From assembly GCA_020060545.1 (NCBI GenBank), contig JAGUZX010000043.1, positions 21,020 to 85,019 on the forward strand: a stretch of 64,000 nucleotides of DNA. Reading direction: 5' to 3'. How positions within the stretch are numbered: position 1 is the first letter of the stretch; each line of letters begins with the position of its first letter. Made by a program: the position numbers and the translations under genes. Source of the DNA: Desulfovibrio sp. (GTDB taxonomy: Bacteria > Bacillota > Dethiobacteria > DTU022). Under the pieces are notes generated by a model. That model did not search any database. It was not told where the DNA came from and saw only the letters and a program-made list of their open reading frames with translations. Positions 5,233 through 46,233 of this stretch are shown here, one piece after another.

Positions 5233-6465
5233 ATGGAGTCTGAAGCTGCCGATACCATCGAAACAAACCGCGGGCAGGTGGAGATATTTACCTTTGGCCG
5301 GTTTTTAATCAGGCGCAACGCCAAAAACCTGCCGGAAGGGCAAAGCCGTTCCAAAAAAGTTTGGGCGCTTTTTCAATATTTACTGGCGCAGCGCGGTAAA
5401 GCCATTTCTCCGGAAACGATCTTGGAAGCTTTATGGCCGGGACAAAACTATACGGATCCCAATTTGGCGCTGCGTTCTTTAGTCCATCGCCTGCGCCGGC
5501 TTCTCGCGGAAGGTCTTGATGAACCTGAACTTGCCCTGAACATTGTATTTTCTCAGGGAGGCTATAAATGGGACAGTAAAGTCGACTGCTGGCTCGATAC
5601 TGATGAGTTTGACCGGTTATGCCGGGAAGCTTATTTATGGAGCGATGAACAGCCCGCGCGCGCTATCGATACTTACCAAAAAGCGATCGCTTTATATGAA
5701 GGGCCTTTCCTCCCGGAGTGCTCCTACCATGAATGGGCTATCGCCAGGCAGAACTATTATCACCGTGCTTTTTTGGATAGTGTTTACAGGCTGGCGGAGC
5801 TTTTAAAGAGAGCGCACCGCTTTTCCGAAATAATCGAGGTTTGCCAAAAAGCCTTAAACCTGGAATATTTTGAAGAAGAGTTGCATATTCTTTTTCTTGA
5901 GGCGTTACTGGAAGAAGGGAAAATTAAGCAGGCCAGGGCGCATTACGACGAGGTTACTTCTACTTTTTACAGGGAACTCGGCACCAAGCCCTCGGAGGCG
6001 ATGCGGAATATTTACCGCCTGATCAAGATGGACAAGGACAACTTTGACCTGGATTTGACATATATCCAGGAGGGATTACGGTGCCGGCAGGAAAACCGGG
6101 GGGCTTTACTGTGCGACCCGGATGTCTTTCGTTATTTCTATAAACTGGAACGCTCCAGGAGAGAAAGAACGGGCCAGGCGGTATTCCTGGGCCTGCTGAC
6201 GATAACGCTGCCCGATTACCGGTTGCCCGCGCCTCAAATTTTGAAGGAAGCGATGCTTCACTTGGAAGCGGTTTTGGAAAAAACACTGCGCAAAGGGGAT
6301 GTCATATCCCGCTGGAATGAAGCGCAATTTTTGTTGATCCTGCCCGGTTTGAACCTGGAACAGGCCGAGCGGGTACTGAAGCGGGTCAATGCCGCGTTCA
6401 AGAGCCGTTACAATCTTGGCAGCCTGGTGCTGCATCGCAAGCAGCAGCCTCTGCTGCCTTTATAA
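5233..6465 (+). CDS. SARP/BTAD-type transcriptional regulator with C-terminal degenerate GGDEF domain (putative c-di-GMP effector)
   Basis: N-terminal OmpR/PhoB-type winged helix (VEIFTFGRFLIRRN…LRSLVHRLRRLL), a central TPR-like BTAD domain and a C-terminal GGDEF-like domain. The active site is degenerate (NEAQF instead of GG[DE]EF). An RxxD I-site (RKGD) sits 5 residues upstream. Confidence 0.8.
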   Translation: MESEAADTIETNRGQVEIFTFGRFLIRRNAKNLPEGQSRSKKVWALFQYLLAQRGKAISPETILEALWPGQNYTDPNLALRSLVHRLRRLLAEGLDEPELALNIVFSQGGYKWDSKVDCWLDTDEFDRLCREAYLWSDEQPARAIDTYQKAIALYEGPFLPECSYHEWAIARQNYYHRAFLDSVYRLAELLKRAHRFSEIIEVCQKALNLEYFEEELHILFLEALLEEGKIKQARAHYDEVTSTFYRELGTKPSEAMRNIYRLIKMDKDNFDLDLTYIQEGLRCRQENRGALLCDPDVFRYFYKLERSRRERTGQAVFLGLLTITLPDYRLPAPQILKEAMLHLEAVLEKTLRKGDVISRWNEAQFLLILPGLNLEQAERVLKRVNAAFKSRYNLGSLVLHRKQQPLLPL

Positions 6466-6502: not shown

Positions 6503-6536
6503 AACCGCGGTTAAGTCGCAAGAGCGCGGTTTTTTG
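6503..6536 (+). terminator. Putative terminator after regulator gene
   Basis: CCGCG...CGCGG stem followed by TTTTTTG. The loop is long, so confidence is low. Confidence 0.35.
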
Positions 6537-6659
6537 TTACAGGGACCGGAAAAAATAAATTGCGATTGGGTCAATGATGTTGTTGCAACTGAAATATAAC
6601 TGGCGCGTGTTAGTTTAAGATCACAGTTGTTGTAGAATTTAGTGAGGAGCCGCAGTATT

Positions 6660-6902
6660 ATGGCTGAGAACCCAAAAAATGCCTGGTCCCGCCGCAACAG
6701 TTCGGCCGATTTTGTGATCCGGTTTTATCCCGGCGGGGCTGCAAATTACCGGGGGAAAATTGAACACGTGCAATCGGGGCAAGTCCAGCAGTTTTGTGAT
6801 TTTACGGAAATGATGCTCCTGATCCAGGAAAAACTCGATCAAACGGGTTTTCCTCAATCGGATACCGAAATGCGTTCCTGGCCCGATAGTCCATCGAAGT
6901 GA
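6660..6902 (+). CDS. Small hypothetical protein, paralog 1 of a tandem pair (~80 aa)
   Basis: ATG 10 nt after GAGGAG. Shares FxIRF…Y/W-xG-xI…F…E(M/L)(M/I)(L/M)L…E(K/A)L…SW(P/D)D with the downstream ORF. Confidence 0.6.
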   Translation: MAENPKNAWSRRNSSADFVIRFYPGGAANYRGKIEHVQSGQVQQFCDFTEMMLLIQEKLDQTGFPQSDTEMRSWPDSPSK

Positions 6903-6916
6903 TAAAGGAAAAAAAG

Positions 6917-7056
6917 ATGATGTTTCAAAACGCTACGGGGAACAGTAAAGGATCGGATGGAAGCGCCGCCTTTTATGTGCGGATTCATTTCCGCCAAAAT
7001 GCCAGCTGGCAGGGGACAATCCAGTGGTTGGACGAAAAAAAGACGGTTTCTTTCCG
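6917..7056 (+). pseudogene. 5' part of small-protein paralog 2, interrupted by IS insertion
   Basis: The ORF runs into the IS left end and terminates inside the IS (…SFRRADA*). The original frame resumes after the right target-site duplication. Confidence 0.7.
7048..7056. repeat. Target-site duplication TTCTTTCCG (left copy)
   Basis: A 9-bp direct repeat that abuts the IS left terminal inverted repeat. An identical copy lies at 9872-9880. Confidence 0.8.
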
Positions 7057-7200
7057 CAGAGCTGACGCATGATCATAAACATCCATGCAGGGCGGGGGCT
7101 TGCGGGACCGGCGGAAAAAATTTTATCGCAAAATAGTACTGGACAATTTTAAACAGGTATGAAACAATAGTGTGGGAAACCATGGAAGGGGGCCTACACT

Positions 7201-8100
7201 ATGGCAAAACAGTACGATACGCCAGTCCTGCTATGCGGAAGATATTTTACCTTACAGGAGTTGCTGGAGATCCGGGAAACGGCGCGCATGTTCCCGAAAC
7301 TGAGCCGCGCTGAGCTGGCGAATACACTCTGTGAGAACTTGGATTGGGTAACGCCGACCGGTAAGTACAAGACAGCCTCATGTCTACAGCTTTTAGAAAA
7401 ACTTGAAGGGCAAGGCTTGATTGACCTGCCGGCTAAGCTGGAGTACAAGAGCGGCGATAAAAATGGGATCGGCTTTGGGCCGCAGACGGCGCCTGCTTCG
7501 CTGCTTGAAGGCCGGGTAGCCGACCTTGAGCCCATCGCCCTTGAGCCGGTGAGAGACCGAAGTGAACTTCGGCTCTGGAACGAGTATGTGCATCGCTACC
7601 ATGAGTTGGGCTACAAGCGGCCCTTTGGGGCCCATCAGCGCTACTTCATCGTTTCTGCTGCCGGGTCTTTAGGATGCCTTCTGTTTGCTGCTGCCGCCTG
7701 GGCGCTTCAAGCCCGCGACGAGTGGATTGGGTGGAGCGAAGTTGACCGCAGCCTGCGCCTGAACTTAATTGTAAACAACACCCGCCTGCTGATCTTTCCC
7801 TGGGTTAGGGTAAAAAACCTGGCCAGTAAAACCTTATCCCTGGCGGCAAAACGCATCAGTTCTGACTGGCAGGAGCGCTACGGTTACAGCCCGGTATTAC
7901 TGGAGACCTTTGTCGACCCGGAGAAACACCGGGGCACCTGTTACCGGGCGGCCAACTGGATCTTTTTAGGCCAAACCAAAGGGCGCGGCCGCACAGAAAT
8001 GCATAACAAAAGGCCCTTTACGCGCAAATATATTTATGTTTACCCGCTTTGTTGTGACTTCCGCTTTATTCTTTGCGGGAAAGGCGGGGATGTCAGGTGA
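7201..8100 (+). CDS. IS-associated accessory protein (DUF4338-like), orfA of the IS
   Basis: 299 aa. Its stop overlaps the transposase start (GTGA). This family is recurrently found next to DDE transposases. Confidence 0.6.
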   Translation: MAKQYDTPVLLCGRYFTLQELLEIRETARMFPKLSRAELANTLCENLDWVTPTGKYKTASCLQLLEKLEGQGLIDLPAKLEYKSGDKNGIGFGPQTAPASLLEGRVADLEPIALEPVRDRSELRLWNEYVHRYHELGYKRPFGAHQRYFIVSAAGSLGCLLFAAAAWALQARDEWIGWSEVDRSLRLNLIVNNTRLLIFPWVRVKNLASKTLSLAAKRISSDWQERYGYSPVLLETFVDPEKHRGTCYRAANWIFLGQTKGRGRTEMHNKRPFTRKYIYVYPLCCDFRFILCGKGGDVR

Positions 8101-9659
8101 ATGCATCGTTGCCGAAGGTTGTAAAGCGCCATGAACGCAGACAAAAACAGCGTGAGCAGAAGGAGCGGCAAAAAAGGCAGCCGGCTCAGTATCCTTTTGT
8201 TACTGCGTTTGCGAACCGCAAAAGTGACTGCAAAACAGTAGATGAAGAAAAAGAAGCCATCCAGCACACAACGGAGGCCGTACTTGATGTATACATACAG
8301 CTGCTGCCGGGGCTTTTGAAAAAGCTGTCCCTGATACCCGACCCGCGGAACCCCAAGAAAATTAAGCATCAGATAACTGTGCTGATGATCTACGGGATCC
8401 TGATGTTTGTCTTTCAAATCCCCTCCCGGCGCCAGACAAACCGGGAGATGACCACGCCGCAGCTTCATAAAAACCTTAAAGCCGTCTTCGGCGAACTTAA
8501 GGAGATGCCGCATCAGGATACCCTGTACCGCCTGTTGGCAGAGATAGATGTGGATCAGCTCGAGAACATCTACCTAGACATCCTAAGAAGCTTAATCCGC
8601 AAGAAAAAGTTCAAAAACCTGCTTTTAAGTAAGCGCTATCTCGTGGCAGTGGACGGCACACAAAAATACGTCATGAAAGAATGTTGGGACAAACGTTATC
8701 TTAGGCGAAAATTTCGCGGCAAAGACGGCAAATACCAGTATTATGCATACGTTTTAGAAGCGGTTTTAATCTTTTCAAACGGCATGGTGCTGCCTTTGAT
8801 GAGCGAATTTCTGGAGAACACCAAGGCGCTGGAAAGAATCGAGGACGACTTGGAATGGAAACAAGATTGCGAGTTGAAAGCATTCCACCGGCTGGCCAAA
8901 CGGCTGAAGAAAGAGTTTCCGAAACTGCCGCTCACCCTGCTTTTAGACGGGTTGTATGCGAACGGTCCCGTTATGAAAGTTTGCTTAAAGAATAAGTGGG
9001 ACTATATGATCGTTTTAAAAGACGGCTCCCTTGCCTGCGTTTGGCAGGAAGTCAAAGGACTGATGCGCCTAGATACCAAAGGAGAACACCGCTGTAAAAA
9101 AGTATGGCAGGGCCGTAGGCAAATCTTTAGATGGGTAAACGGCATCGAATATGAATATGGTCTGGGCAGAGGTAAAAAAGTGCTGACCATCAATGTGGTG
9201 ATCTGTAACGAAAGCTGGAAAGAAACCGATAGAAAGGGCAATATGGTGGGAAAAACCGGCCATCACGCCTGGATTTCCAGCGTGCCGCTGAACCACAAAA
9301 ATGTCTATGAACGCTGCAATCTGGCGGCCCGGAAACGCTGGTCGCACGAGAACAATATTCTAAAAGAAAAGCATCATGGTTACCACTATGAACACATCTT
9401 TGCCTATGACTTCGATGCGATGCGGGGTTATCACTACCTTATGCATATAGCCCGCATGTTAAATGAACTGATGCTTCATTCAATTAACCTGATCGAAGAG
9501 GTCAAGACAGTCGGCATCCAGGCATTCCTGCGTAAATTTCGCGAAGTTATGATCCACAGGGAGCTCGATACAAAGCAGCTTCGCCTGTTGTCAGAATCCC
9601 CGGGACAGTTGCGGCTGGTGCAGGAAGAAAACTGGCAAACGAACTGGCCGGCGGCATAA
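8097..9659 (+). CDS. DDE transposase, IS4-like
   Basis: LVAVDGTQ (first Asp) and a C-terminal R-x3-E-x6-K (RKRWSHENNILKEK) resembling the IS4 Y(2)R(3)E(6)K motif. ~520 aa. GTG start is coupled to the upstream ORF. Confidence 0.75.
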   Translation: MNASLPKVVKRHERRQKQREQKERQKRQPAQYPFVTAFANRKSDCKTVDEEKEAIQHTTEAVLDVYIQLLPGLLKKLSLIPDPRNPKKIKHQITVLMIYGILMFVFQIPSRRQTNREMTTPQLHKNLKAVFGELKEMPHQDTLYRLLAEIDVDQLENIYLDILRSLIRKKKFKNLLLSKRYLVAVDGTQKYVMKECWDKRYLRRKFRGKDGKYQYYAYVLEAVLIFSNGMVLPLMSEFLENTKALERIEDDLEWKQDCELKAFHRLAKRLKKEFPKLPLTLLLDGLYANGPVMKVCLKNKWDYMIVLKDGSLACVWQEVKGLMRLDTKGEHRCKKVWQGRRQIFRWVNGIEYEYGLGRGKKVLTINVVICNESWKETDRKGNMVGKTGHHAWISSVPLNHKNVYERCNLAARKRWSHENNILKEKHHGYHYEHIFAYDFDAMRGYHYLMHIARMLNELMLHSINLIEEVKTVGIQAFLRKFREVMIHRELDTKQLRLLSESPGQLRLVQEENWQTNWPAA

Positions 9660-9871
9660 TGGCCAAGTTATAAGGTAGAAGCCCGCCTGAGCCACACTAC
9701 CCGTCTGTCCTTTGGTTGGCACCTGGCAGGCCAAAGTGCGCAAAACGATTCACCAAAAAGCGCTGTTGGGGACTAAACAACAAGTTTCTGGAAATAATCG
9801 TCAGTTGACTTGTGCAAAAAAGCTGATTTCGGGCCTCGCAAGATTTTTAAGAATTTCATGCGTCAGCTCTG

Positions 9872-9880
9872 TTCTTTCCG
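9872..9880. repeat. Target-site duplication TTCTTTCCG (right copy)
   Basis: Identical to 7048-7056. Confidence 0.8.
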
Positions 9881-9989
9881 CAGTTTTCTTGAATTAATCA
9901 TGCTCATGACGGAAGCCCTGGGCAAAGTAAAAGGCCGGGAGGCGGCAGCTAATTTACTCTCCTGGGACGATAAAGAAGAGGTTTCGTAG
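9872..9989 (+). pseudogene. 3' part of small-protein paralog 2 (continues the frame interrupted at 7056)
   Basis: After excision of the IS plus one TSD copy in silico, the frame continues …SFRSFLELIMLMTEALGKVKG…LSWDDKEEVS*. This aligns with the C-terminus of paralog 1 (QQFCDFTEMMLLIQEKL…RSWPDSPSK). Confidence 0.7.
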
Positions 9990-10107: not shown

Positions 10108-12186
10108 TTGAATATTCTAGTTGTTGACCGCAATGAAATATTCCCGGATCTTCTCAAAAAGGTCCTGGTTGAAGACAAAAAATGGAACATTATTACCTGC
10201 TCCTCGGGGCTGGTAACGCTGAAGCTCATTCAAAAATTCACTCCCGATATGCTGATCATGGATCTCAACCTGCCCGATATCGACAGCTTTGAAATGCTAA
10301 GCAAGCTGAAAAGCTTCAGCCGGGAGATCTATACGCTGGTTTTAATCGACAAACTGGAGTACGGGAAGCTTGAGCAGGCGCTTTTAGTCGGCATTGACGA
10401 CTATGTGGTGAAACCGATCGAACAAAAAGAGATGATCGCGCGGATCAAGAAAGCGATCTGGTCCAGTTCCCGGAGAAGCGCCCCGGGGATGGACAGGGAG
10501 GCGGGCATCCCTAAGCCCTGGGCGCTGGACGAAGAGCTGCCGGGGGTCAACCATATCATCATCTATCCCAATACCGCCTCCAAAATCCAAGAAACACGGG
10601 GGGAAGCTGCGGCAACCGGGCTGGAAAACGCCGGCGGGACGGATTTTCTAAAAACGGCGCGCGCTGCCGCAGCTGAAATAAACCCTGACGCGGCCGGGCA
10701 TGTGCAAAAGGACAATCCGCCGGTGAAGAGCGCTTCAACCTATACCTTCGGGTTAGTTAAACCGGTTGGTTTAAGCGGAGCGGATGCCGGCCAAACAGCA
10801 GTTTGCGATCCCCCGCCGGAAATCGCCGGCTTAACCCGCTCCGCGATAACTAATGCTCCTGTAGAAACGGATTCTTTTAGCGGCCCGGGTAGCCGGGGTG
10901 AAGCGGCGCCGGCTGAAGCTGAGCCCAAAAGCTGCGGCCGTAATTTGGCCGAAGAAGAAAAGGCCGATCCGCCAGGGTATCTTGAGTGGCCCGGCGAGGA
11001 CGAGTTCAATACCCGCCTGAACACAGGCGGCGGTACGGGGGGCGCGGCGGCCGGAACCGAAAACGCCGGCGGTATTCCTTTTCGAAAAGAGGCCGCGTTT
11101 TTTTCGGCGGGAGCAGCGCCTGCCGCAAGCCGGGATCGTGAAGGCGGCGCGGCGCCGGAGCGTGACCCGTCATATTTCTTTGGTAAACCGGTACGGATGG
11201 ACAGGGCAGGTGAGCCGGCAGAACCGGGACCGGATCGCCTGGAACCTCCCGATGCGTTAAAAGTGGAAGCCGATTTATTACAGCCGGGAGAGTCGAGCGC
11301 TCAGGAAAAACCAAAACCTTGGCGAAGCGCCGGCAGCGTCACGGGAGAGGCAGGCGCAGGAAAGCAAAGCGCCGGGCCCCTTTCTGCCGGCAAAGAGAGC
11401 GGCGCTTATACGGCGGAAGATAAACCCGGCGAAGAGCGATCCAGTGATCGCGGTTTTGCGGCAGAGGGCCTTGCAACCTATTCCTTTGGGTTAAAGCAGG
11501 CGGGAAAATCCAGTCAAGCCGAGGACTGGCCGGCGGTCTCTAAAAGCCGGGCCTACGCCAGGCCTCCGCTGGGCGGCAAAGAGAAAAAGAAGAAACAACC
11601 GGCCGTCGTGAGGATTTTGGGCAACATTTTTTTTGCCGGCTTGATGGTGATGATGGTGACCCTGGCTTTTTTCCTGGTCCAAAGCAGAATGGCCGGAGGC
11701 CCGCCGTCGGTGTTTGGCCACCAGTTGTATGTGGTGCTCAGCGGCAGCATGAACCCCGCTTTTAGCACGGGGAGCCTGGCTTTCGTCTGCCCGATTGAGC
11801 CCGAAAATGTTAAAGTAGGCGATATTATTACTTTTAAAAGCTCGCCGGTCGGCAAAACCCTTACCACTCACCGCGTAGTGGAAATCGACGGCGAAGACGG
11901 GCTTAGTTTTGTGACACGGGGTGACGCAAACCGGGTCAACGACCCCAACCCGGTTCCGGCGGAAAATGTGATCGGAAAGGTAAACGGTGCCATCCCTTAC
12001 CTGGGGTATCTGCTGGATTTCGCCAAAACCAGAAACGGGCTGCTTTTCCTGGTGGTGGTGCCGGGACTGCTGGTGATTGCCTTCGAGTTGCGCAGCCTGT
12101 TCCGGTATGCGGTTGAAAACCAAAAGCAGAAAGAGCTGCAAAAGGGAGGCGGTTTATATGCCGGACGGGTGGTGGATCAGCAATGA
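10108..12186 (+). CDS. Response-regulator receiver domain fused through a ~380-aa low-complexity linker and a TM helix to a SipW-type (archaeal/ER-type) signal peptidase I
   Basis: N-terminal REC domain (phospho-acceptor D in LIMDLNLPD, K in DYVVKP). An Ala/Gly/Pro/Glu-rich linker spans ~aa 120-500. TM segment VVRILGNIFFAGLMVMMVTLAFF. C-terminal S26 domain with catalytic SGSMNP (Ser), TTHRV (His) and a GDAN box. TTG start. Confidence 0.85.
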   Translation: MNILVVDRNEIFPDLLKKVLVEDKKWNIITCSSGLVTLKLIQKFTPDMLIMDLNLPDIDSFEMLSKLKSFSREIYTLVLIDKLEYGKLEQALLVGIDDYVVKPIEQKEMIARIKKAIWSSSRRSAPGMDREAGIPKPWALDEELPGVNHIIIYPNTASKIQETRGEAAATGLENAGGTDFLKTARAAAAEINPDAAGHVQKDNPPVKSASTYTFGLVKPVGLSGADAGQTAVCDPPPEIAGLTRSAITNAPVETDSFSGPGSRGEAAPAEAEPKSCGRNLAEEEKADPPGYLEWPGEDEFNTRLNTGGGTGGAAAGTENAGGIPFRKEAAFFSAGAAPAASRDREGGAAPERDPSYFFGKPVRMDRAGEPAEPGPDRLEPPDALKVEADLLQPGESSAQEKPKPWRSAGSVTGEAGAGKQSAGPLSAGKESGAYTAEDKPGEERSSDRGFAAEGLATYSFGLKQAGKSSQAEDWPAVSKSRAYARPPLGGKEKKKKQPAVVRILGNIFFAGLMVMMVTLAFFLVQSRMAGGPPSVFGHQLYVVLSGSMNPAFSTGSLAFVCPIEPENVKVGDIITFKSSPVGKTLTTHRVVEIDGEDGLSFVTRGDANRVNDPNPVPAENVIGKVNGAIPYLGYLLDFAKTRNGLLFLVVVPGLLVIAFELRSLFRYAVENQKQKELQKGGGLYAGRVVDQQ

Positions 12187-12761: not shown

Positions 12762-12877
12762 GTGCCAAAACTGATCGCATCACGCCAAGACCGGCGATGT
12801 GATCGTTTGCGAGATTTTCGAGAGGGGGGAATAAAGCAACGCAGCATGATCTTGCCCTAAAACTCGCCTAAATTAAC

Positions 12878-12960
12878 GATAATGGCAAACCTGCCGCAAG
12901 GCGGGGACGCAAAGCCAAGGGCCTTTCGCAAGGATGGCAGCCTGGCCGCCGGGGGAAAAA
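12878..12960 (+). ncRNA. c-di-GMP-I (GEMM) riboswitch, copy 1
   Basis: GGCAAACC-UGCC-GCAA(tetraloop)-GGCGGGGACGCAAAGCC followed by a P2 region. It matches the invariant GEMM core (…GGCAAACC…GNRA…GGGACGCAAAGCC…) of the V. cholerae Vc2 aptamer. It lies 25 nt upstream of the RBS of the second TasA-like gene. Confidence 0.8.
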
Positions 12961-12986
12961 GATAAGTGTAAATGGAGGGAGCAAAA

Positions 12987-13604
12987 ATGAATCGAAAAGT
13001 AATGATGAGCGTCCTGGTGATCCTGATGGCCACGGCGGCCGTGGCCGGCGCCACCATGGCCTGGTTTACCGACACGGCAACAGTTGAACCCAACACTTTC
13101 GTGGCGGGGACATTGAAAATCAGGGCCAACGAGGTGTTCAATTGGGCGGATCAAACCAGGCCCAATTGGAACCCCGGGGACTGTGACCAAAAGGAAATTA
13201 CCCTTGAAGTGACGGGGACCAAGTCGGTCTATCTCCGGGCCCGGATTACGGAAACATGGACCATGGTCGGTGCAAGCACGGTAACTTACACCAGGCGGAA
13301 TGCGCCGAACATCACCTGGAAAGTGAACGGACAACCCTGGAACCATGACGGCGCCTGGCAGTTGATCACCATCGACGGCGTTGATTACTGGTTCTATAAA
13401 GGCCCCGTTGACGCCAAACTGGCCTCGGGAGCGCAATTGCTGGTTCTTTCGGAGGTCTGCCTGGATGGAGCGGCCACGGGCAACGACTACCAGGGGGCTA
13501 CGTATACGCTGGCCATTTCTTTTGAAGCGGTTCAGACCACGAACCAGGCGGTAAACGATGTATGGGGATACAAGTTCGAAGGCGGTTCATGGGTGCCCAG
13601 ATAG
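12987..13604 (+). CDS. TasA/camelysin-like secreted protein 2 with SipW-cognate signal peptide
   Basis: ATG 6 nt after GGAGGGAG. Signal peptide followed by ATMAWFTD. 205 aa. Paralogous to 12183..12761. Confidence 0.8.
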   Translation: MNRKVMMSVLVILMATAAVAGATMAWFTDTATVEPNTFVAGTLKIRANEVFNWADQTRPNWNPGDCDQKEITLEVTGTKSVYLRARITETWTMVGASTVTYTRRNAPNITWKVNGQPWNHDGAWQLITIDGVDYWFYKGPVDAKLASGAQLLVLSEVCLDGAATGNDYQGATYTLAISFEAVQTTNQAVNDVWGYKFEGGSWVPR

Positions 13605-14714: not shown

Positions 14715-14911
14715 GTTAGTAATCGATCCTATGCGGATGTATCATCCCAAAAAAAACTTGTGACTGGTAATATTTGTTGCAGGAATTTAAGGTTTATTGG
14801 CCAAAATAAGTATATGGATGTTTGGATTGGATGAGCTGTTAATTGAGACCTTAAAGGAGATGATGGCCGGCAAGATCCTGACTGCGAATTCAAGCAAGTA
14901 AAAATCCTGAC

Positions 14912-15000
14912 CGACAAGGCAAACCCGTCGAGAGGCGGGGACGCAAAGCCAAGGGTCTAAAGCCCGATTGACGGGCCATGATCGCCAGGCTACCGAAACA
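14912..15000 (+). ncRNA. c-di-GMP-I (GEMM) riboswitch, copy 2
   Basis: GGCAAACCCGUCGAGAGGCGGGGACGCAAAGCCAAGGGUCUAAAGCC…GGCUACCGAAACAGG. Same core as copies 1 and 3. The downstream GGTCCCTC…GAGGGAC hairpin (15020-15042) can sequester the RBS. Confidence 0.8.
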
Positions 15001-15048
15001 GGTTTTATTATTTCGGCTGTCGGTCCCTCACAAAGGAGGGACTTTATT

Positions 15049-16140
15049 TTGAGCAAAATAAGGTTTATTAATAGCATCGTGATCAGCGTTGTGATCGCCC
15101 TGATCCTTTCACTGCCGGGGATTTCAAAAATTACTGCCAGGGAAGATCTGACAATTTCGACTGTGGGCGCCGCGTCAAACGAAGCGGGAGCAGAAGAAGG
15201 CCCGGTGTTGCGGGAAGCAACGGCCGGCCTGCCTGGCGGCCCCGATCAGATTGGCCAGGCGGAAGCGGAAATAAACGGTGGTGCCGGAAACGCACCGGAA
15301 CAAAGTTCAACGCCGGGTTCCAGCCCGGAGCAGGGCGCTGTGCCAAAGCAGGAACTGGCTGCCGGGGAACAGTTGACGGAGAAGTCAACAGGCGCGCCGC
15401 CGCAGGAAGCGGTGAAAAATGAACCGGTCCAGGAGACGGTAAAAAGCGAGCCGGCCCCGCCCCCAACCAAGAGTGAAACGCCGCCGCCTGCCGCGCCGGT
15501 CAGCTTCAGTTGGGGCGCCGCGCAAACCTATCGTTACCGCACGGAGATAGTGTTAACCAACAGCGGAGCGGAAGTTTCACAGGGCGTACTGGTCAGGCTG
15601 CCCCTGCTGGAAAACAGCTCGCCGTATCAAAACACCACCCTCACTTCCATTAACTATGAACCTCTTGAGACCACGGGAAGGACAAGCTCTTTTCATCTCG
15701 GAGACATGCAGCCGGGTGAAACGAAAACGCTAATCGTGGATTATACCATTACGGTGCGCCCCGTTTGGCTCAATTCAACCAATGCGACCGTGGAAAAAGC
15801 AAGGCAGGCTTACCGGGAGTACGCCGGGAGCGGCAACTGCTTTGTTCTGGCGGCCGGTTTTGTAAACCGCAGCCGGGAATTGGGTCTTACCGCGCGGGTG
15901 GTCAACGGGATTGCCAACCCGCAAAGAGGGATATTCGCGCCGGGCTATATCCAAAACCGTCACAGCTGGGCCGAGTTTTATGTCGAAGGGCCGGGTTGGG
16001 TTCCGGTTGACCTTACTTTTCAATATTTCGGGCAGCTGCCCCAGGCTTCCCATATCGTCGAGAACTACGCCGACCAATCGCTGAAGCTCAACTATTTCGG
16101 GGGCAGAGTAAGCGCAGTTTGGCACACCAGAATCCTGTAA
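15049..16140 (+). CDS. Secreted transglutaminase-like cysteine protease superfamily protein with Pro/Glu-rich spacer
   Basis: TTG start 8 nt after GGAGGG, downstream of the riboswitch. Signal/TM MSKIRFINSIVISVVIALILSL. C-terminal transglutaminase-like core (Cys in GNCFVLAAGF, His in HSWAEFY, Asp in VPVDLT). Confidence 0.7.
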   Translation: MSKIRFINSIVISVVIALILSLPGISKITAREDLTISTVGAASNEAGAEEGPVLREATAGLPGGPDQIGQAEAEINGGAGNAPEQSSTPGSSPEQGAVPKQELAAGEQLTEKSTGAPPQEAVKNEPVQETVKSEPAPPPTKSETPPPAAPVSFSWGAAQTYRYRTEIVLTNSGAEVSQGVLVRLPLLENSSPYQNTTLTSINYEPLETTGRTSSFHLGDMQPGETKTLIVDYTITVRPVWLNSTNATVEKARQAYREYAGSGNCFVLAAGFVNRSRELGLTARVVNGIANPQRGIFAPGYIQNRHSWAEFYVEGPGWVPVDLTFQYFGQLPQASHIVENYADQSLKLNYFGGRVSAVWHTRIL

Positions 16141-42220: not shown

Positions 42221-42254
42221 GTTTTTTGAAGTAAGTTGATAATGCGAATAAAAC

Positions 42255-42342
42255 TCGTTTCAGGGCAAACCCGTTGAAAAGCGGGGACGCAAAGCCGACA
42301 GGCCTAAAGCGCTACTGCCAGGGCGGCTGGGTTACCGGGCGG
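42255..42342 (+). ncRNA. c-di-GMP-I (GEMM) riboswitch, copy 3
   Basis: CAGGGCAAACCCGUUGAAAAGCGGGGACGCAAAGCCGACAGGCCUAAAGCGCUACUGCCAGGGCGGCUGGGUUACCGGGCGG. Near-identical to the Vc2 consensus (GGCAAACC…GAAA…GGGACGCAAAGCC…GGCCUAAA…GGGUUACCG). Confidence 0.88.
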
Positions 42343-42525: not shown

Positions 42526-45138
42526 ATGGTACGCTTTGTCCGCAAGCGATTGGGCGATATCCTTTTGGAAGCCGGCGTCATCACGGAACAGCAGCTGGAA
42601 GAAGTATTGCAGGAACAGGTCACCAGCCGCAAACGGATCGGGCGGCTGCTCATCGAAAAAGAGCTGATCACCGAGGAACACTTGATCGATATCCTCGAGC
42701 GGCAGCTGGGCATCTCCCAGGTCAATCTCTATAACTATAATATCGACCCGAAGGTCGCCTCGTTGATCCCCATGTCGCTGGCCCAACGCTACATGGTGAT
42801 TCCAATTGGCAGAAAAGAACAAAAGATAATCCTGGCCATGGCCGACCCGATGAATATTATCGCCCTCGATGATGTGGCTATGATTACCGGTTCAGAGATC
42901 ATCCCGGTAATCGCTTCGGAGAGTTCTGTCCAGCATGCCATCAACCAAATCTATGGCCTGCAGGAGTCCCTGGAGATGAGCCTGGAGGATAAGAAAGTCA
43001 AGACCAAAGAAGACGAGGAGGAGCTCGCACGGCTGCGCGCCCTGGTGGAAGACGCACCCATTGTCAAAGTAGTCAATTCGCTGATCCACCAGGCGGCCAG
43101 CGAAGGGGCCAGTGACATCCATATCGAGCCGTCGGGCAAAGGGGTCAGGGTGCGCATGCGCATCGACGGGATCCTGCATGACCTGATGTCGCCGCCGAAA
43201 GACACGCAACCCTTAATTGTTTCCCGGATCAAGATCATGGCCAACCTGGACATCGCAGAGCGAAGGCTTCCCCAGGACGGTCGGATCCAGATGCAGGTGG
43301 GCTTAAACGACATCAACCTCCGGGTCTCGACGATGCCCACCATTCACGGTGAGAAAGTAGTAATCCGGCTGCTGGAAAAAGACCGGGTGATCGTTTCCCT
43401 GGACAAGCTTGGTTTTAATGAGCACAATTTCGAACTTTACAAACAATTTTTATTAAACCACTCCGGCATGATCCTGGTCACCGGGCCAACCGGTTGCGGT
43501 AAAACCACGACCCTTTATTCAACCTTGAATTATCTCAACCGTCCGGAGGACAATATCATCTCCGTGGAAGACCCGGTGGAATACCGCCTGGACGGGGTCA
43601 ACCAGATCCAGGTCAACCCGCGCATCAATTTAAACTTTGCCAACGCCCTGCGTTCCATCCTCCGGCAGGATCCCAACATCATCATGATCGGTGAAATCAG
43701 GGATCTCGAGACGGCGGAAATCGCCACCCGCGCCGCGCTGACCGGGCACCTTGTCCTGAGCACCCTGCACACCAACGATGCCGTCCGGGCCATCTCCCGG
43801 CTGATCGATATGGGCGTGGAAAACTATTTGATTACCTCCTCCCTGGTCGGCGTGATCGCCCAGCGCCTGGTCAGGCTGATCTGCCCCCACTGCCGCGAGA
43901 GTTACGCGCTCCCGGACCGGGAAAAAATCTTATTTCAAAAGATTTTCCGAAAAGTACCTCTGCAAACGCTTTACCGGGGGGCGGGGTGCAAAAGCTGCAA
44001 CCAGACCGGCTACCGGGGCCGCATCGCCATCCACGAGGTGCTTTCGGTCAGCCCCGCGATCCGGCGCCTGGTCCTGGCGGGAGCGACAGTGGAGCAGCTG
44101 CAGCGGCAAGCCCTGGTGGAGGGGATGGTTACCCTTCTGGAGGATGGGCGCCGCCGGGTTGAAGAAGGAATTACTTCCCTGGAGGAAATCTTGCGGGTCG
44201 CTTTTAACAGCATGAATATCGACGGTGAAAGCAGGCATCTCGAACCGGCGGTTGAGGCGGTTGGAGCGGCTCAAACGGCTCCGGAGGCGCCGGCGGTCGG
44301 GCTTGTTCCGGAAAGCGGGCGCTTGACCGGCGCCGGGCCTGAAATAATGCCTGGACGCGCCGGCTTGCAGCAGCCTCCCGCCCGGGAAGAAAGCAGTTAT
44401 GTTTTTAACCAGCTTAAAAACATGAAAGGCGCGCCTGTAACGCCTGGTGTTACCGCCCGGGAAATGCAGCCGGAAAAAATAATCACGCCCGCCGTCGCCA
44501 TCAAATTAAAAGGCCCCGCCAGCGCCAAAGTCGGTGAAACCTATACCTGCCATTTCAGCGTGATCAATAAGGGGAATGTGCCTTTAACCGGGGTAACGGT
44601 AACGGATTCACTCTTCGGAGAGGATTGGAGTTACCCGATCGGAGAGCTTCCGCCTGGCGCCGAATCGGCGTTTGTGATGAACTTTACCACCGACAGGGGG
44701 CATGCCGGCAGCCTGGAGAATACGGCCACGGTTACGGGATTTTACCGGTCAACCCCTGTTACCGCCCAGGACAAGCAGATCATCGAGATTATCGATCTTG
44801 TCCAGCCCGGCCTGGCTATTGAAATCTCCGGTCCGGCCACAGCCATACCCGGGGAAACGGTAGTTTATAAATTCACGGTTACCAATTCTGGCAGTGTTCC
44901 CCTGAAAAGGGTCAAAGTCACGGATCCCCTTTTCGGCACCGGCTGGCGCAACTTCATCAACGCGATCGCGCCGGGACAATCGGTTAAATTCAACGTGGAG
45001 TATACCATTCCGGCAAGCGCCTATGCGCGGCTGAAGAATACGGCCACCGCCTCCGGATGGCATGAAGACGAGGTAACCGCGCAGGGGAGTCACACGATCG
45101 AGATTTTGTCCTGGCAAACCGGGACCGTGTCGAGGTGA
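42526..45138 (+). CDS. pilB: Type IV pilus assembly ATPase PilB/GspE with N-terminal MshEN-type c-di-GMP-binding motif and a C-terminal extension of two DUF11 repeat domains
   Basis: N-terminus KRLGDILLEAGVITEQQLEEVLQEQ fits the MshEN RLGxxLLxxGxIxxxxLxxxLxxQ motif, and a second partial copy follows. Walker A GPTGCGKTT, Asp and His boxes, and a tetracysteine Zn motif (CPHC…CKSC). The core ends …GITSLEEILRV and is followed by a ~300-aa in-frame extension with two ~100-aa DUF11-like repeats (…TVTNSGSVPL…V.VTD…). Confidence 0.85.
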   Translation: MVRFVRKRLGDILLEAGVITEQQLEEVLQEQVTSRKRIGRLLIEKELITEEHLIDILERQLGISQVNLYNYNIDPKVASLIPMSLAQRYMVIPIGRKEQKIILAMADPMNIIALDDVAMITGSEIIPVIASESSVQHAINQIYGLQESLEMSLEDKKVKTKEDEEELARLRALVEDAPIVKVVNSLIHQAASEGASDIHIEPSGKGVRVRMRIDGILHDLMSPPKDTQPLIVSRIKIMANLDIAERRLPQDGRIQMQVGLNDINLRVSTMPTIHGEKVVIRLLEKDRVIVSLDKLGFNEHNFELYKQFLLNHSGMILVTGPTGCGKTTTLYSTLNYLNRPEDNIISVEDPVEYRLDGVNQIQVNPRINLNFANALRSILRQDPNIIMIGEIRDLETAEIATRAALTGHLVLSTLHTNDAVRAISRLIDMGVENYLITSSLVGVIAQRLVRLICPHCRESYALPDREKILFQKIFRKVPLQTLYRGAGCKSCNQTGYRGRIAIHEVLSVSPAIRRLVLAGATVEQLQRQALVEGMVTLLEDGRRRVEEGITSLEEILRVAFNSMNIDGESRHLEPAVEAVGAAQTAPEAPAVGLVPESGRLTGAGPEIMPGRAGLQQPPAREESSYVFNQLKNMKGAPVTPGVTAREMQPEKIITPAVAIKLKGPASAKVGETYTCHFSVINKGNVPLTGVTVTDSLFGEDWSYPIGELPPGAESAFVMNFTTDRGHAGSLENTATVTGFYRSTPVTAQDKQIIEIIDLVQPGLAIEISGPATAIPGETVVYKFTVTNSGSVPLKRVKVTDPLFGTGWRNFINAIAPGQSVKFNVEYTIPASAYARLKNTATASGWHEDEVTAQGSHTIEILSWQTGTVSR

Positions 45139-45147
45139 CGCTCCCCG

Positions 45148-46233
45148 TTGACTTTAGAGATTAACGATCTTTTAATGGAAACGGTGGCACAGGGCGCTTC
45201 GGACCTGCACATCTCGGTGGGGATCCCGCCGCTGCTGCGGCTGCACGGTGAGCTAGTGCCGATGTCCAGGCCCCCTTTGCGCCCGGCGGACACGGCCGGC
45301 CTGGTCCGGCAGGTGCTGACCGAAGCCCAAGCGGAAACTTTTTTGGCCAGCGGTGAACTGGATTTTTCCTTTTCCGCTCCCGGCGTGGGGAGGTTCCGGG
45401 TCAATGTTTACCGCCAGCGCGGCACCGCGGCGATGGCCATGCGGGCGGTGACCGGGGAGATCCCCTCCCTGGAAAGTTTGGGCCTGCCCGCGGTAACGGC
45501 GCAGCTGGTAAAATATCACAAGGGGCTGGTCCTGGTCACCGGCCCGACCGGCAGCGGCAAATCGACCACCCTGGCGGCGATGATCGACCTGATTAACCAG
45601 CAGCGCCGCTGCCATATTCTGACGCTGGAGGACCCGATCGAATACCTGCACCAGCATAAAAAAAGCATGGTCAACCAGCGCGAGATCGGCCAGGACAGCG
45701 CCGGGTTCGCCCGGGCGTTGCGTTCGGCCCTGCGCCAGGATCCCGATGTAATCCTGGTCGGCGAGATGCGCGACCTGGAGACGATCGCCATCGCCATCAC
45801 CGCCGCCGAGACCGGGCACCTGGTGCTGGCGACCCTGCATACCGTGGACGCCCCCCAGACGATCGACAGGGTGATCGATGTTTTTCCCCCGCACCAGCAG
45901 CAGCAGATCCGGGTCCAGCTGGCCAATACCCTGGTCGGGGTGCTCTCCCAGCGCTTGCTCAAGCGTCAAGGCGGGAAGGGGCGGGTGGCGGCGGTTGAAA
46001 TCCTGCTCAACAACGCGGCGGTGCGCAACCTGATCCGTGAAGGAAAGGTTTACCAGCTCTATTCGGTGATGCAGACCGGCTCGCGCAGCGGGATGCAGCT
46101 GATGGATGCAAGCCTGGTCAAGCTCTACCAGCAGGGTGCGATCGATTACGATACCGCCCTGGAGCATGCCGCGAAGCCGGAAAACATGAAAAACGTTATC
46201 TCCGCTCCGGGCGGAAGAGAGTACAACCTTTAG
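45148..46233 (+). CDS. pilT: Twitching-motility retraction ATPase PilT
   Basis: Walker A GPTGSGKST and the PilT AIRNLIRE-like motif (AVRNLIREGK). 361 aa. TTG start after GAGGTGA. Confidence 0.9.
   Translation: MTLEINDLLMETVAQGASDLHISVGIPPLLRLHGELVPMSRPPLRPADTAGLVRQVLTEAQAETFLASGELDFSFSAPGVGRFRVNVYRQRGTAAMAMRAVTGEIPSLESLGLPAVTAQLVKYHKGLVLVTGPTGSGKSTTLAAMIDLINQQRRCHILTLEDPIEYLHQHKKSMVNQREIGQDSAGFARALRSALRQDPDVILVGEMRDLETIAIAITAAETGHLVLATLHTVDAPQTIDRVIDVFPPHQQQQIRVQLANTLVGVLSQRLLKRQGGKGRVAAVEILLNNAAVRNLIREGKVYQLYSVMQTGSRSGMQLMDASLVKLYQQGAIDYDTALEHAAKPENMKNVISAPGGREYNL

What the first reader, a model, noticed from the sequence alone, without database searches (positions are those of the whole stretch)
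6660..9989. Tandem pair of small paralogous proteins of unknown family; second copy split by the IS
ORFs 6660..6902 and 6917..7056 plus 9872..9989 share a distinctive motif. A beta-hairpin-like FxIRF…(Y/W)xGxI…F is followed by an amphipathic E(M/L)(M/I)LM…E(K/A)L helix and a SWxD tail. Neither has a signal peptide. The proteins are positioned between the regulator and the REC-SipW gene. Reconstructing the pre-insertion sequence restores a full-length second paralog, so the family was under selection before IS insertion.
Basis: seen in the sequence. Interest (0 to 1): 0.55.

Follow-up and report, generated by a model that had tools for sequence, protein, structure and literature searches.

The report
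Undescribed small-protein pair heading c-di-GMP-gated fibre operon
Two small neighbouring genes, one cut in two by a mobile element, belong to a large but never-described protein family of Clostridia that sits with a particular regulator in front of genes for surface fibres and adhesins switched by the signal molecule c-di-GMP, so it is probably a missing part of how these bacteria control attachment.

Summary
ORF A is 6660..6902 (80 aa). ORF B is 6917..7059 joined to 9884..9989 (82 aa, in frame). They are true paralogues: a profile built only from B-type proteins hits A at E 1.7e-15. B is split by a 2.8-kb IS with perfect 16-nt inverted repeats and a 9-12-bp target duplication. An uninterrupted A-B locus in a relative matches the reconstruction colinearly at 82% over 896 nt. 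dN/dS is about 0.3 for both genes.

The family matches nothing in Pfam, NCBIfam, PHROGs, PADLOC or PDB sequences, and no PDB or viral fold. It is nevertheless large: 2225 clusters at 50% identity, all named taxa Clostridia. Most top hits are natural A-B fusions, and some carry three or four domains. AlphaFold gives each domain a beta-beta-beta-alpha core.

The context is conserved. A SARP-like BTAD regulator with a degenerate GGDEF domain lies nearby in 40 of 83 loci. GTAAC direct repeats lie upstream and are 33-fold enriched. A signal-peptide protein lies downstream. In 26 of 83 loci a c-di-GMP riboswitch (class I or II) starts right after the module. The window's own operon holds two such riboswitches.

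My best reading is a new cytoplasmic regulatory module of c-di-GMP-controlled adhesin and fibre loci. The mechanism is untested.

The parts
5233..6465 (+). Partner regulator. It has an OmpR-type winged helix, a BTAD (SARP-like, TPR-like) domain and a C-terminal degenerate GGDEF-like domain. GGDEF is replaced by NEAQF, and RKGD (RxxD) is retained 5 residues upstream.
   Evidence: Pfam BTAD 8.3e-19, Trans_reg_C 2.4e-07, GGDEF 3.8e-05. Homologues lie within 8 kb of the module in 40 of 83 loci, and 20 lie directly upstream on the same strand. RxxD is kept in nearly all of 45 aligned homologues.
6513..6532 (+). Terminator-like hairpin with a T-run after the regulator gene. It suggests that the A-B operon has its own promoter.
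   Evidence: Pattern scan. Equivalent hairpins are visible after the regulator in L001 and L006.
6585..6600 (+). GCAAC-N6-ATAAC, a one-mismatch variant of the GTAAC direct-repeat box found upstream of module genes. It is an inferred binding site for the SARP-like regulator.
   Evidence: It aligns with TGTAACCGAGATATAACC of L001. TAAC-N6-8-TAAC occurs in 36 of 84 upstream regions, at 1.46 per kb against 0.044 per kb background. The exact box is absent here.
6660..6902 (+). A-type paralogue, 80 aa. It has an acidic beta-beta-beta-alpha core and the tail GFPQSDTEMRSWPD.
6917..7059 (+). B-type paralogue, N-terminal part (residues 1-47). It carries the near-invariant hairpin RIHFRQNASWQG.
7048..7059 (.). 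Left copy of the target-site duplication TTCTTTCCGCAG. The duplication is 9 bp if the CAG belongs to the inverted repeat.
7057..9871 (+). Insertion sequence of 2815 bp with perfect 16-nt terminal inverted repeats. It carries a DruA/DUF4338-like ORF (7201..8100) and a DDE transposase with a DDE_Tnp_1_assoc domain (8073..9659).
9872..9883 (.). Right copy of the target-site duplication.
9884..9989 (+). B-type paralogue, C-terminal part. It carries the helix SFLELIMLMTEAL and the tail LLSWDDKEEVS-COOH.
10108..12186 (+). Downstream gene of the operon: a receiver domain fused through a long low-complexity linker to a SipW-type signal peptidase.
   Evidence: Pfam Response_reg 2.5e-16; NCBIfam SipW 1.3e-42.
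12875..12954 (+). c-di-GMP-I (GGC variant) riboswitch aptamer inside the operon, immediately before the TasA-like gene 12972..13604.
   Evidence: Rfam 70.5 bits against a gathering score of 59.
14908..14997 (+). Second c-di-GMP-I riboswitch aptamer in the operon, before the 390-aa ORF 14968..16140. That ORF sits where L001's PF01841 transglutaminase-core gene sits; it was not itself scanned.
   Evidence: Rfam 79.4 bits against a gathering score of 35. The same two positions are occupied in the syntenic locus L001.

Best explanation
A and B are the two halves of a cytoplasmic heteromeric module. Each half has a three-stranded sheet plus one helix, and together they probably form a pseudo-symmetric pair. 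The module belongs to an undescribed domain family of Clostridia.

The module is the first gene product of operons for secreted surface fibres and adhesins. Those operons are driven by a dedicated SARP-like regulator (winged helix, BTAD, degenerate GGDEF) and are gated by c-di-GMP riboswitches.

The most likely role is a locus-specific regulatory adaptor. Under this reading the regulator binds GTAAC direct repeats and transcribes the module. The module then feeds back on that regulator or on expression of the downstream genes.

Two features could mediate this. One is B's near-invariant surface hairpin RxxxRQNA(S/T)WQG. The other is the conserved (R/Q)SW-acidic tails, which could dock on the TPR-like BTAD domain.

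Shown here: the family, the paralogy, the natural fusions, the fold prediction, the genomic linkage and the purifying selection. Inferred: heterodimerisation, the regulatory role and the binding partners.

In this window the B half has been knocked out by an IS insertion. The insertion is probably recent, because both halves are still in frame.
For: Family and paralogy. An exhaustive profile search found 2225 cluster representatives at E<=1e-3 and 803 at E<=1e-10. The B-only profile hits A at E 1.7e-15.

Evidence that A and B work together.
- Of the 160 sequences then in hand (11 first-round hits plus the 150 best, P0010 counted once), 104 carry two or three domains.
- 54 fusions align as A then B. 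The longer proteins examined read A-B-A-B (P0161, P0162) or A-B-B (P0171).
- Separate A and B genes are 14-33 nt apart in four lineages.

Fold. A model of A joined to reconstructed B has pTM 0.70 and core pLDDT 88-94. B alone reaches only 80-87 in its core.

Linkage to the regulator. A close homologue (E 1e-37 to 1e-158) lies within 8 kb in 40 of 83 loci, and in 21 of 36 loci that have at least 6 kb on both sides. Twenty regulator genes lie directly upstream of a module gene. The arrangement recurs in Dethiobacteria and Clostridium sp. MCC353.

Operator. TAAC-N6-8-TAAC lies upstream in 36 of 84 loci, a 33-fold enrichment.

Downstream genes. These almost always encode signal-peptide proteins, often of 500-2600 aa, or SipW with TasA-like proteins.

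c-di-GMP.
- Two riboswitches lie in the window's operon.
- In 25 of 83 loci a class I aptamer starts -4 to 146 nt after the module's stop codon.
- One locus has a class II aptamer in the same position.
- 24 of 25 gaps between module and aptamer lack a run of five or more T.

Selection. dN/dS is about 0.3 for both genes.
Against: No experiment or annotated homologue supports any function.

The module's cores are not strongly basic: median net charge is -2 for A and +1 for B. That argues against a classical nucleic-acid binder.

The acidic C-terminal tail is conserved only in the subclade closest to the window and is missing from many gut fusions.

In some loci a GTAAC box lies between the module and the riboswitch. 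There the adhesin can have its own promoter and co-transcription is not general.

The 83 loci are the hits nearest to the B-type profile plus a few chosen contigs, so they are a biased sample. Gene calls in them are stop-to-stop ORFs.

The structure model used a synthetic A+B fusion, and no error map between the domains was available.
Confidence: 0.5

Rival explanations
1. The module is itself a c-di-GMP receptor. B's hairpin R-x-x-x-R-Q-N-x-S-x-x-G would bind the dinucleotide, much as the PilZ motifs RxxxR and (D/N)xSxxG do, with the degenerate A half as scaffold. The module would then pass the signal to the regulator or to the secretion machinery. This is a specific version of the main explanation.
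For: The motif is near-invariant in B domains (R21, R25, Q26, N27, A28, W30 and G32), and A lacks it. The module sits directly before c-di-GMP riboswitches of two classes in 26 of 83 loci. The partner regulator keeps an RxxD I-site-like motif beside a dead GGDEF. The PilZ motif definition comes from established knowledge (Amikam and Galperin 2006), not from a tool.
Against: None of 101 members hits Pfam PilZ even at E<=5. The predicted fold is beta-beta-beta-alpha, not a PilZ barrel. The two motifs are contiguous here, whereas in PilZ they are roughly 20-30 residues apart. A protein receptor is not needed to explain the linkage, because the riboswitches already sense c-di-GMP. No binding data exist.
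Confidence: 0.2
2. The module is a dedicated cytoplasmic chaperone or targeting factor for the secreted protein encoded next to it. It would act like the small dimeric alpha/beta chaperones of other export systems and keep giant adhesins or TasA-like subunits export-competent.
For: It lies immediately upstream of, and probably in one transcript with, a signal-peptide protein in most loci. It is small, the A half is acidic, and it appears dimeric. Type IV pilus-like secretion genes and SipW are frequent neighbours. PMC11580942, whose abstract was seen although the paper was not read, proposes that such genes in C. perfringens form a type II secretion-like system and reports secretion of a matrix protein.
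Against: The downstream proteins are very diverse: TasA-like, VWA giants, small secreted proteins and REC-SipW. B's hairpin is nearly invariant across all of them. The strongest linkage is to a transcription factor and its operator. In the window and in L001 the next gene is the peptidase, not a substrate.
Confidence: 0.15
3. The module is a PUR/Whirly-like single-stranded nucleic-acid binder that acts on the leader RNA, for instance on the riboswitch or on operon read-through.
For: The best PDB Foldseek hits for the two-domain model are Pur-alpha 3k44 (E 0.063) and Whirly proteins 3r9y, 1l3a and 4koo. Both of those folds are built from repeated strands-plus-helix units that pair up. The module sits next to structured RNA leaders.
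Against: The hits are not significant: no hit reaches E<=1e-3, TM-scores are 0.16-0.26 and rmsd is 13 A. The single-domain model gives only generic beta-beta-beta-alpha hits, namely chemokines and a Thermus protein of unknown function. The cores are not basic. There is no sequence match to PUR families.
Confidence: 0.08
4. The ORFs are chance open frames, or decayed remnants without function.
For: They are short, have no annotation, and show no pairwise BLASTP similarity. One of them is disrupted.
Against: There are thousands of homologues with conserved motifs. The order is syntenic in distant taxa. dN/dS is about 0.3. The structure prediction is confident. Ribosome-binding sites are present.
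Confidence: 0.01

Closest known systems
AfsR-AfsS of Streptomyces, a SARP regulator with an adjacent small effector gene (from established knowledge; not tested here)
   Same: A SARP/BTAD regulator gene is followed, after its own terminator, by a small cytoplasmic protein gene. The promoter of that gene carries direct repeats of the kind SARPs bind, at about 11-nt spacing. The small protein is internally repetitive or paralogous.
   Different: There is no sequence similarity. AfsS is a 63-aa protein with short repeats and is not a beta-beta-beta-alpha domain. The regulator here ends in a degenerate GGDEF domain instead of NB-ARC/TPR. The module here heads the structural operon itself. The taxon is Clostridia rather than Actinobacteria.
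SinI/SinR and SlrA/SlrR, and RemA/RemB, the small regulators of the Bacillus subtilis tapA-sipW-tasA operon (from established knowledge)
   Same: These are small cytoplasmic proteins, some in paralogous pairs, that control expression of a SipW/TasA fibre operon.
   Different: No Pfam or NCBIfam match to those families was found at E<=1. The predicted fold is different. The module here is encoded inside the operon and is linked to a SARP-type activator and to c-di-GMP riboswitches. As far as I recall from published work, neither feature is part of the Bacillus circuit.
PilZ domain c-di-GMP receptors
   Same: The residues R-x-x-x-R and N-x-S-x-x-G are present and near-invariant in B. The genomic setting is c-di-GMP-controlled surface structures.
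   Different: The two motifs are contiguous in one hairpin instead of about 20-30 residues apart. The predicted fold is a three-stranded sheet plus helix, not a six-stranded barrel. No PilZ profile match was found.
PUR repeat / Whirly fold
   Same: A repeated unit of strands followed by a helix, two units per functional domain. These are the top Foldseek hits, although they are not significant.
   Different: There are three strands per unit, not four. TM-scores are 0.16-0.26. There is no sequence relationship, and the module is not basic.
UpxY/UpxZ of Bacteroides capsule loci (from established knowledge)
   Same: Two small regulatory genes sit at the head of each of several paralogous surface-structure loci in one genome. 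Here one Syntrophomonadaceae genome has at least six module genes at three loci, and Syntrophomonas loci repeat the regulator-module cassette.
   Different: UpxY is a NusG-like antiterminator. No such similarity was found here.

Membership tests
PilZ (PF07238) | Match to the PilZ profile | tested here: not met
   No PilZ hit was found for A, B or 12 relatives at E<=1. PilZ is also not among the 25 families shown, out of 42 matched, for 101 members at E<=5.
PilZ (PF07238) | RxxxR and (D/N)xSxxG motifs, with RxxxR in a flexible N-terminal segment about 20-30 residues before (D/N)xSxxG | tested here: inconclusive
   Both residue patterns are present and conserved in B as RIHFRQNASWQG. They are contiguous within one hairpin.
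PilZ (PF07238) | Six-stranded beta-barrel fold | tested here: not met
   AlphaFold models show three strands plus one helix per domain.
PilZ (PF07238) | Binds c-di-GMP | not testable with these tools
   This needs ITC, DRaCALA or MST on purified protein.
PUR repeat / Whirly-like fold | Significant structural superposition on a PUR or Whirly domain | tested here: not met
PUR repeat / Whirly-like fold | Sequence match to PurA or DUF3276 profiles | tested here: not met
   No such hit was found.
RemA (DUF370) / SinI-SinR type biofilm regulators | Match to the family profiles | tested here: not met
   No Pfam or NCBIfam family matched at E<=1 except one chance-level zf-FCS hit at E 0.25.
MbtH-like proteins (a beta-beta-beta-alpha fold, often in SARP-regulated clusters) | Match to the PF03621 profile, or a structural match to solved MbtH-like proteins | tested here: not met
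   PF03621 gave no hit for the 12 proteins scanned singly at E<=1 and is not among the 25 of 42 families listed for the 101 members. No MbtH-like chain appears among the top 50 Foldseek hits.
The new A/B family itself (working definition) | Core F-x-(I/V)-R ... G-x-I ... F-(R)-S-x-L-E-(L/M) helix, with the B subtype carrying R-x-x-(F/Y)-R-Q-N-A-(S/T)-W-Q-G | tested here: met
   Window A scores 122.9 bits against the family profile, and the two halves of B score 69.5 and 43.3 bits. Reconstructed B scores 118.5 bits against the B-only profile.

The most novel reading that the evidence does not exclude
The B domain is a new class of c-di-GMP-binding protein domain. A PilZ-like RxxxR/NxSxxG motif would sit on a minimal beta-beta-beta-alpha scaffold, paired with a degenerate A domain. 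Together with the SARP regulator carrying a degenerate GGDEF domain and the riboswitches, it would form a three-layer c-di-GMP circuit. That circuit would decide which adhesin or fibre locus is expressed in Clostridia, including abundant gut Oscillospiraceae and Lachnospiraceae.
Probability: 0.2. Interest if true: 0.85.

Novelty: categorically new. Interest (0 to 1): 0.62.

Why it matters
Little is known about how anaerobic Firmicutes control adhesins, pili and matrix fibres. That includes the dominant gut families Oscillospiraceae and Lachnospiraceae and subsurface Peptococcaceae and Syntrophomonadaceae. Most current knowledge comes from Bacillus and Clostridioides difficile.

This work defines a widespread, unannotated protein module and its conserved wiring. 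The wiring consists of a SARP-like regulator with a dead GGDEF domain, a GTAAC direct-repeat operator, the module, a c-di-GMP riboswitch, and then a secreted adhesin or a SipW/TasA fibre. That gives a concrete, testable regulatory unit and a new domain to add to the family databases.

If the module binds c-di-GMP or the regulator, it adds a new effector type to second-messenger signalling in Gram-positive bacteria. The IS-disrupted copy in this window is a natural knock-out that could be compared with intact relatives.

Tried and rejected
- **Pairwise BLASTP of A against B:** no hit. Profile methods were needed.
- **Profile libraries:** Pfam, NCBIfam, PHROGs and PADLOC were run on A, B, fusions and all 101 aligned members. 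No consistent hit appeared.
- **PDB sequence profiles:** three alignments gave only chance hits, namely a MarR protein and designed repeat proteins.
- **Fold searches:** Foldseek against PDB with the two-domain and one-domain models, and against BFVD, gave nothing at E<=1e-3.
- **First word-index searches:** these gave only 8 and 3 hits and wrongly suggested a tiny family.
- **Literature:** a search for the motif string found no paper, and searches on BTAD with GGDEF, or SipW with riboswitch, returned no listed title or abstract describing the module.
- **SipW/TasA as the defining partner:** rejected, because it is present in only 9 and 8 of 83 loci.
- **Strongly basic DNA-binding protein:** not supported by the net charges.
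- **Sigma-70 promoter upstream of A:** the scan found none, and the exact TAAC-N-TAAC box is absent from the window.


Full report
**What is in the sequence.**
ORF A (6660..6902) encodes 80 aa. ORF B starts at 6917 and leaves its native frame after codon 7054-7056. Its continuation runs in frame to the stop at 9989.

Joining 6917..7059 to 9884..9989 gives 249 nt and an 82-aa protein:
MMFQNATGNSKGSDGSAAFYVRIHFRQNASWQGTIQWLDEKKTVSFRSFLELIMLMTEALGKVKGREAAANLLSWDDKEEVS

The interruption is a mobile element.
- It has perfect 16-nt inverted repeats at 7057-7072 and 9856-9871.
- A 12-nt direct repeat TTCTTTCCGCAG lies at 7048-7059 and 9872-9883. The duplication is 9 bp if CAG belongs to the inverted repeat.
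- The repeat terminus occurs only at these two places in the window, against 0.02 expected.
- Inside are a DruA/DUF4338-like ORF (7201..8100, PF14236 at 2.5e-43) and a DDE transposase with a DDE_Tnp_1_assoc domain (8073..9659).

Otherwise the description is accurate.

**Are A and B paralogues, and is B's reconstruction real?**
BLASTP of A against B finds nothing. A profile built from 14 B-type proteins, with no A-type member, aligns A from residue 1 to 77 at 42.9 bits, E 1.7e-15. Reconstructed B scores 118.5 bits against the same profile.

An intact 81-aa protein (P0001) is 79% identical to reconstructed B over 99% of its length. P0001 and an A orthologue (P0010, 82% identical) lie on one uninterrupted 1012-bp contig. 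The IS-less reconstruction of the window aligns colinearly with that contig over 896 nt at 82% identity.

Nei-Gojobori dN/dS against that relative is 0.31 for A and 0.28 for B. Only these three ORF pieces in the 64-kb window match the family.

**How big is the family, and is it known?**
The first word-index searches gave 8 and 3 hits. An exhaustive HMMER search of 1.84 billion cluster representatives with the A+B alignment found 2225 proteins at E<=1e-3 and 803 at E<=1e-10.

A second search with a fusion alignment found 783 proteins at E<=1e-5. Every source name was 'hypothetical protein' and no Pfam domain was on record. The named taxa were Clostridium, Dethiobacteria, Soleaferrea, Lachnospiraceae, Oscillospiraceae and Eubacteriales.

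A scan of 185,579 species genomes for R[IV]x[FY]RQNA[ST]W gave 245 confirmed sites. They lie in Peptococcaceae, Syntrophomonadaceae, Oscillibacter, Pseudoflavonifractor, Anaerotruncus, Faecousia, Lachnospiraceae and others.

Nothing known matches.
- Pfam, NCBIfam, PHROGs and PADLOC give no hit.
- No Pfam family is shared by more than 4 of 101 members even at E<=5.
- No PDB sequence matches.
- No paper contains the motif.

**Architecture and fold.**
Of the 160 sequences in hand, 90 have two domains and 14 have three recognisable domains. The two-domain proteins align as A then B. The longer ones inspected read A-B-A-B (P0161, P0162) or A-B-B (P0171). Some Syntrophomonadaceae loci have B alone.

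B is the conserved half, with F-x-V-R-I-x-F-R-Q-N-A-S/T-W-Q-G ... W ... F-R-S-x-L-E-L ... L. A keeps mainly G, F, E, D, FPQ and R-x-(W/F).

I modelled window A joined to reconstructed B with 100 natural fusions as the alignment. AlphaFold2 gave pLDDT 77 and pTM 0.70, with core blocks at 88-94. Each domain has strands at 17-22, 32-36 and 42-45 plus a helix at 48-62; the second domain has strands at 98-107, 110-117 and 122-126 plus a helix at 129-143. The N-termini and tails are disordered.

B alone gives the same beta-beta-beta-alpha at lower confidence, with core blocks at 80-87. The natural fusions, the short A-B spacers and the better confidence of the pair all point to an A-B pseudo-dimer. 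That remains an inference, because no inter-domain error map was available.

**Fold comparison.**
Foldseek against PDB found no match at E<=1e-3.
- For the two-domain model the best hits are Pur-alpha 3k44 (E 0.063, TM 0.24) and Whirly proteins.
- For B alone the best hits are generic beta-beta-beta-alpha proteins such as chemokines and the Thermus protein 2yzt (best E 0.38).
- BFVD gave nothing.

**Genomic context: the regulator.**
In two MAGs the order is the same as in the window. One has YceG, BTAD regulator, A, B, a small membrane protein, REC-SipW and TasA-like genes. The other has BTAD, A, B, a 289-aa protein, SipW and three camelysin/TasA-like genes.

Across 83 non-redundant loci, a close homologue of the window's regulator (5233..6465) lies within 8 kb in 40 loci. 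It is present in 21 of the 36 loci that have at least 6 kb on both sides. Twenty regulator genes sit directly upstream of a module gene on the same strand. SipW and TasA-like genes are present in only 9 and 8 loci.

Other arrangements are these.
- Dethiobacteria: BTAD, then an A-B fusion, then a small secreted protein.
- Clostridium sp. MCC353: BTAD divergent from a four-domain protein.
- Soleaferrea: A-B fusion, a 1298-aa VWA protein, SipW, then two TasA-like genes.

The regulator has an OmpR-type winged helix, a BTAD domain with TPR-like hits and a GGDEF-like C-terminus. In 45 aligned homologues the GGDEF signature is replaced (WNEAQF or CSVSQF). An RxxD five residues upstream is kept almost everywhere.

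**Genomic context: operator and downstream genes.**
A terminator-like hairpin follows the regulator gene at 6513-6532. Upstream of module genes, the direct repeat TAAC-N6-8-TAAC (mostly GTAAC at 11-12-nt spacing) occurs on the coding strand in 36 of 84 regions. That is 1.46 per kb against 0.044 per kb in the loci as a whole.

The window has a one-mismatch version, GCAAC-N6-ATAAC at 6585-6600, which aligns with the box of L001. Direct repeats at this spacing are what SARP and OmpR-type activators bind. That statement is established knowledge, and the assignment to this regulator is inferred.

The gene after the module almost always encodes a protein with an N-terminal signal peptide, often 500-2600 aa long. 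In Oscillospiraceae the neighbourhood also holds PilT/GspE-like and GspF-like genes, pseudopilin-like genes, a lipoprotein I read as transglutaminase-like, and sortases. These neighbour assignments rest on my reading of the sequences, not on profile scans.

**c-di-GMP.**
Rfam finds three c-di-GMP-I riboswitches in the window.
- 12875-12954 lies directly before the TasA-like gene 12972..13604.
- 14908-14997 lies before the 390-aa ORF 14968..16140, which occupies the position of L001's PF01841 transglutaminase-core gene.
- 42254-42339 lies before a gene pair that reads like a PilB/PilT type IV pilus pair, an assignment made by eye.

The syntenic locus L001 has the first two in the same places. 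A covariance model built from eight of these aptamers was searched over 84 sources and gave 35 hits.

In 25 of 83 loci an aptamer starts -4 to 146 nt after the module's stop codon, on the same strand and before the secreted-protein gene. Most of these gaps are 30-90 nt. One further locus, in Vallitaleaceae, has a class II c-di-GMP riboswitch in exactly that position.

The gaps lack a run of five or more T in 24 of 25 cases. After the aptamer, a segment ATTTCG is complementary to CGAAAT just beyond the GAAAGGAGAA ribosome-binding site, which suggests translational gating. Four longer gaps contain their own GTAAC box. The module is therefore a fixed companion of c-di-GMP-gated surface-protein genes.

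**Interpretation.**
The best-supported reading is that A and B form a cytoplasmic pseudo-dimeric module belonging to the regulon of the adjacent SARP-like regulator. It acts as a regulatory adaptor for c-di-GMP-controlled fibre and adhesin loci. I put this at about 0.5.

Two features suggest how it might work. First, B's near-invariant polar hairpin R-x-x-x-R-Q-N-A-S/T-W-Q-G contains the residues of the PilZ motifs RxxxR and (D/N)xSxxG, although they are contiguous here and sit on a different fold. Second, both paralogues end in a disordered tail with a conserved (R/Q)(S/T)W-acidic motif. In the window's subclade that tail ends ...W(D/E)(D/E)xEE(V/I)S-COOH. This recalls the EEVD peptides that TPR domains bind, and the BTAD domain is TPR-like. 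Both ideas are leads, not results.

The rivals are a direct c-di-GMP receptor (0.2, a subset of the main idea), a secretion chaperone (0.15), a PUR/Whirly-like RNA binder (0.08) and non-genes (refuted).

**The IS event.**
The insertion removes B's helix and tail and leaves a 47-residue stump plus four foreign residues. The same interrupted arrangement is seen on a second metagenome contig. Both halves are undamaged, so the event is probably recent.

The IS genes point the same way as the operon, so any polarity effect on REC-SipW and the TasA-like genes is uncertain. This organism is in effect a natural B knock-out.

**Caveats.**
- The 83 loci are the hits closest to the B profile plus a few chosen contigs, so they are not a random sample.
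- Neighbour genes were called as stop-to-stop ORFs.
- The riboswitch model was built from eight sequences with a shortened calibration, although its bit scores are 53-92.
- The modelled protein is a synthetic fusion.
- No function has been tested.

Noticed in passing
window 12875-12954, 14908-14997, 42254-42339 (+): There are three c-di-GMP-I riboswitch aptamers. Two lie inside the SipW/TasA-like operon: one before the TasA-like gene 12972..13604 and one before the 390-aa ORF 14968..16140, positional counterpart of L001's transglutaminase-core gene. The third lies before a type IV pilus PilB-like (42526..45138) and PilT-like (45148..46233) gene pair.
   Followed up: yes
window 5233-6465 (residues about 340-400): The SARP-like regulator ends in a GGDEF-like domain whose GGDEF signature is NEAQF. 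The I-site-like RKGD five residues upstream is retained, and the RxxD is kept in nearly all of 45 homologues. It may be a c-di-GMP-sensing transcription factor.
   Followed up: partly
window 7057-9871: This IS carries a DruA/DUF4338-like ORF (PF14236 at 2.5e-43, with a weak Mom-like hit) in front of a DDE transposase with a DDE_Tnp_1_assoc domain. A Druantia-associated domain as an IS passenger or accessory gene is unusual. The IS family was not resolved; NCBIfam hits to ISAs1, IS1380, ISH3 and IS701 are all weak.
   Followed up: partly
window 10108-12186: A response-regulator receiver domain is fused through a roughly 370-aa low-complexity Ala/Gly/Pro/Glu-rich linker and a membrane segment to a SipW-type signal peptidase. 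The orthologue in L001 (417 aa) has the same fusion with a shorter linker. This suggests phosphorylation-controlled signal-peptide processing.
   Followed up: no
L001, L002, L006, L011, L032 and 31 other loci, upstream of module genes; window 6585-6600 (variant): There is a conserved direct repeat GTAAC-N6/7-GTAAC at 11-12-nt spacing, 33-fold enriched. In L042, L049, L059 and L077 a similar direct-repeat box (TAAC-N7-8-TAAC or a one-mismatch variant) also lies between the module gene and the riboswitch.
   Followed up: partly
L032 8313-8355 and the equivalent region in about 20 Oscillospiraceae loci: The riboswitch expression platform looks translational. ATTTCG just after the aptamer can pair either with GAAAT before the aptamer or with CGAAAT just past the GAAAGGAGAA ribosome-binding site of the giant adhesin gene.
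   Followed up: no
L058 8167-8251: A class II c-di-GMP riboswitch occupies the same position, right after the module gene, that class I aptamers occupy in 25 other loci.
   Followed up: partly
L002-L005 10560 onward (soda-lake sediment contigs): The protein encoded after the A-B pair has an N-terminal membrane or signal segment and then a run of more than 80 consecutive aspartates that reaches the contig end.
   Followed up: no
L028 (Syntrophomonadaceae chromosome OY781889, 2.77 Mb region): Four A-B fusion genes lie within 16 kb, each followed by a gene for a secreted protein. The same chromosome has two further loci (L021, L070). This suggests a multi-locus family that may be expressed in a coordinated or exclusive way.
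   Followed up: no
window 13742-14407: This 221-aa protein in the fibre operon has an N-terminal signal-like segment and a C-terminal hydrophobic anchor preceded by PPTNG and followed by RKKAEA. It looks like a cell-wall sorting signal, although no sortase was noticed in the part of the window examined.
   Followed up: no
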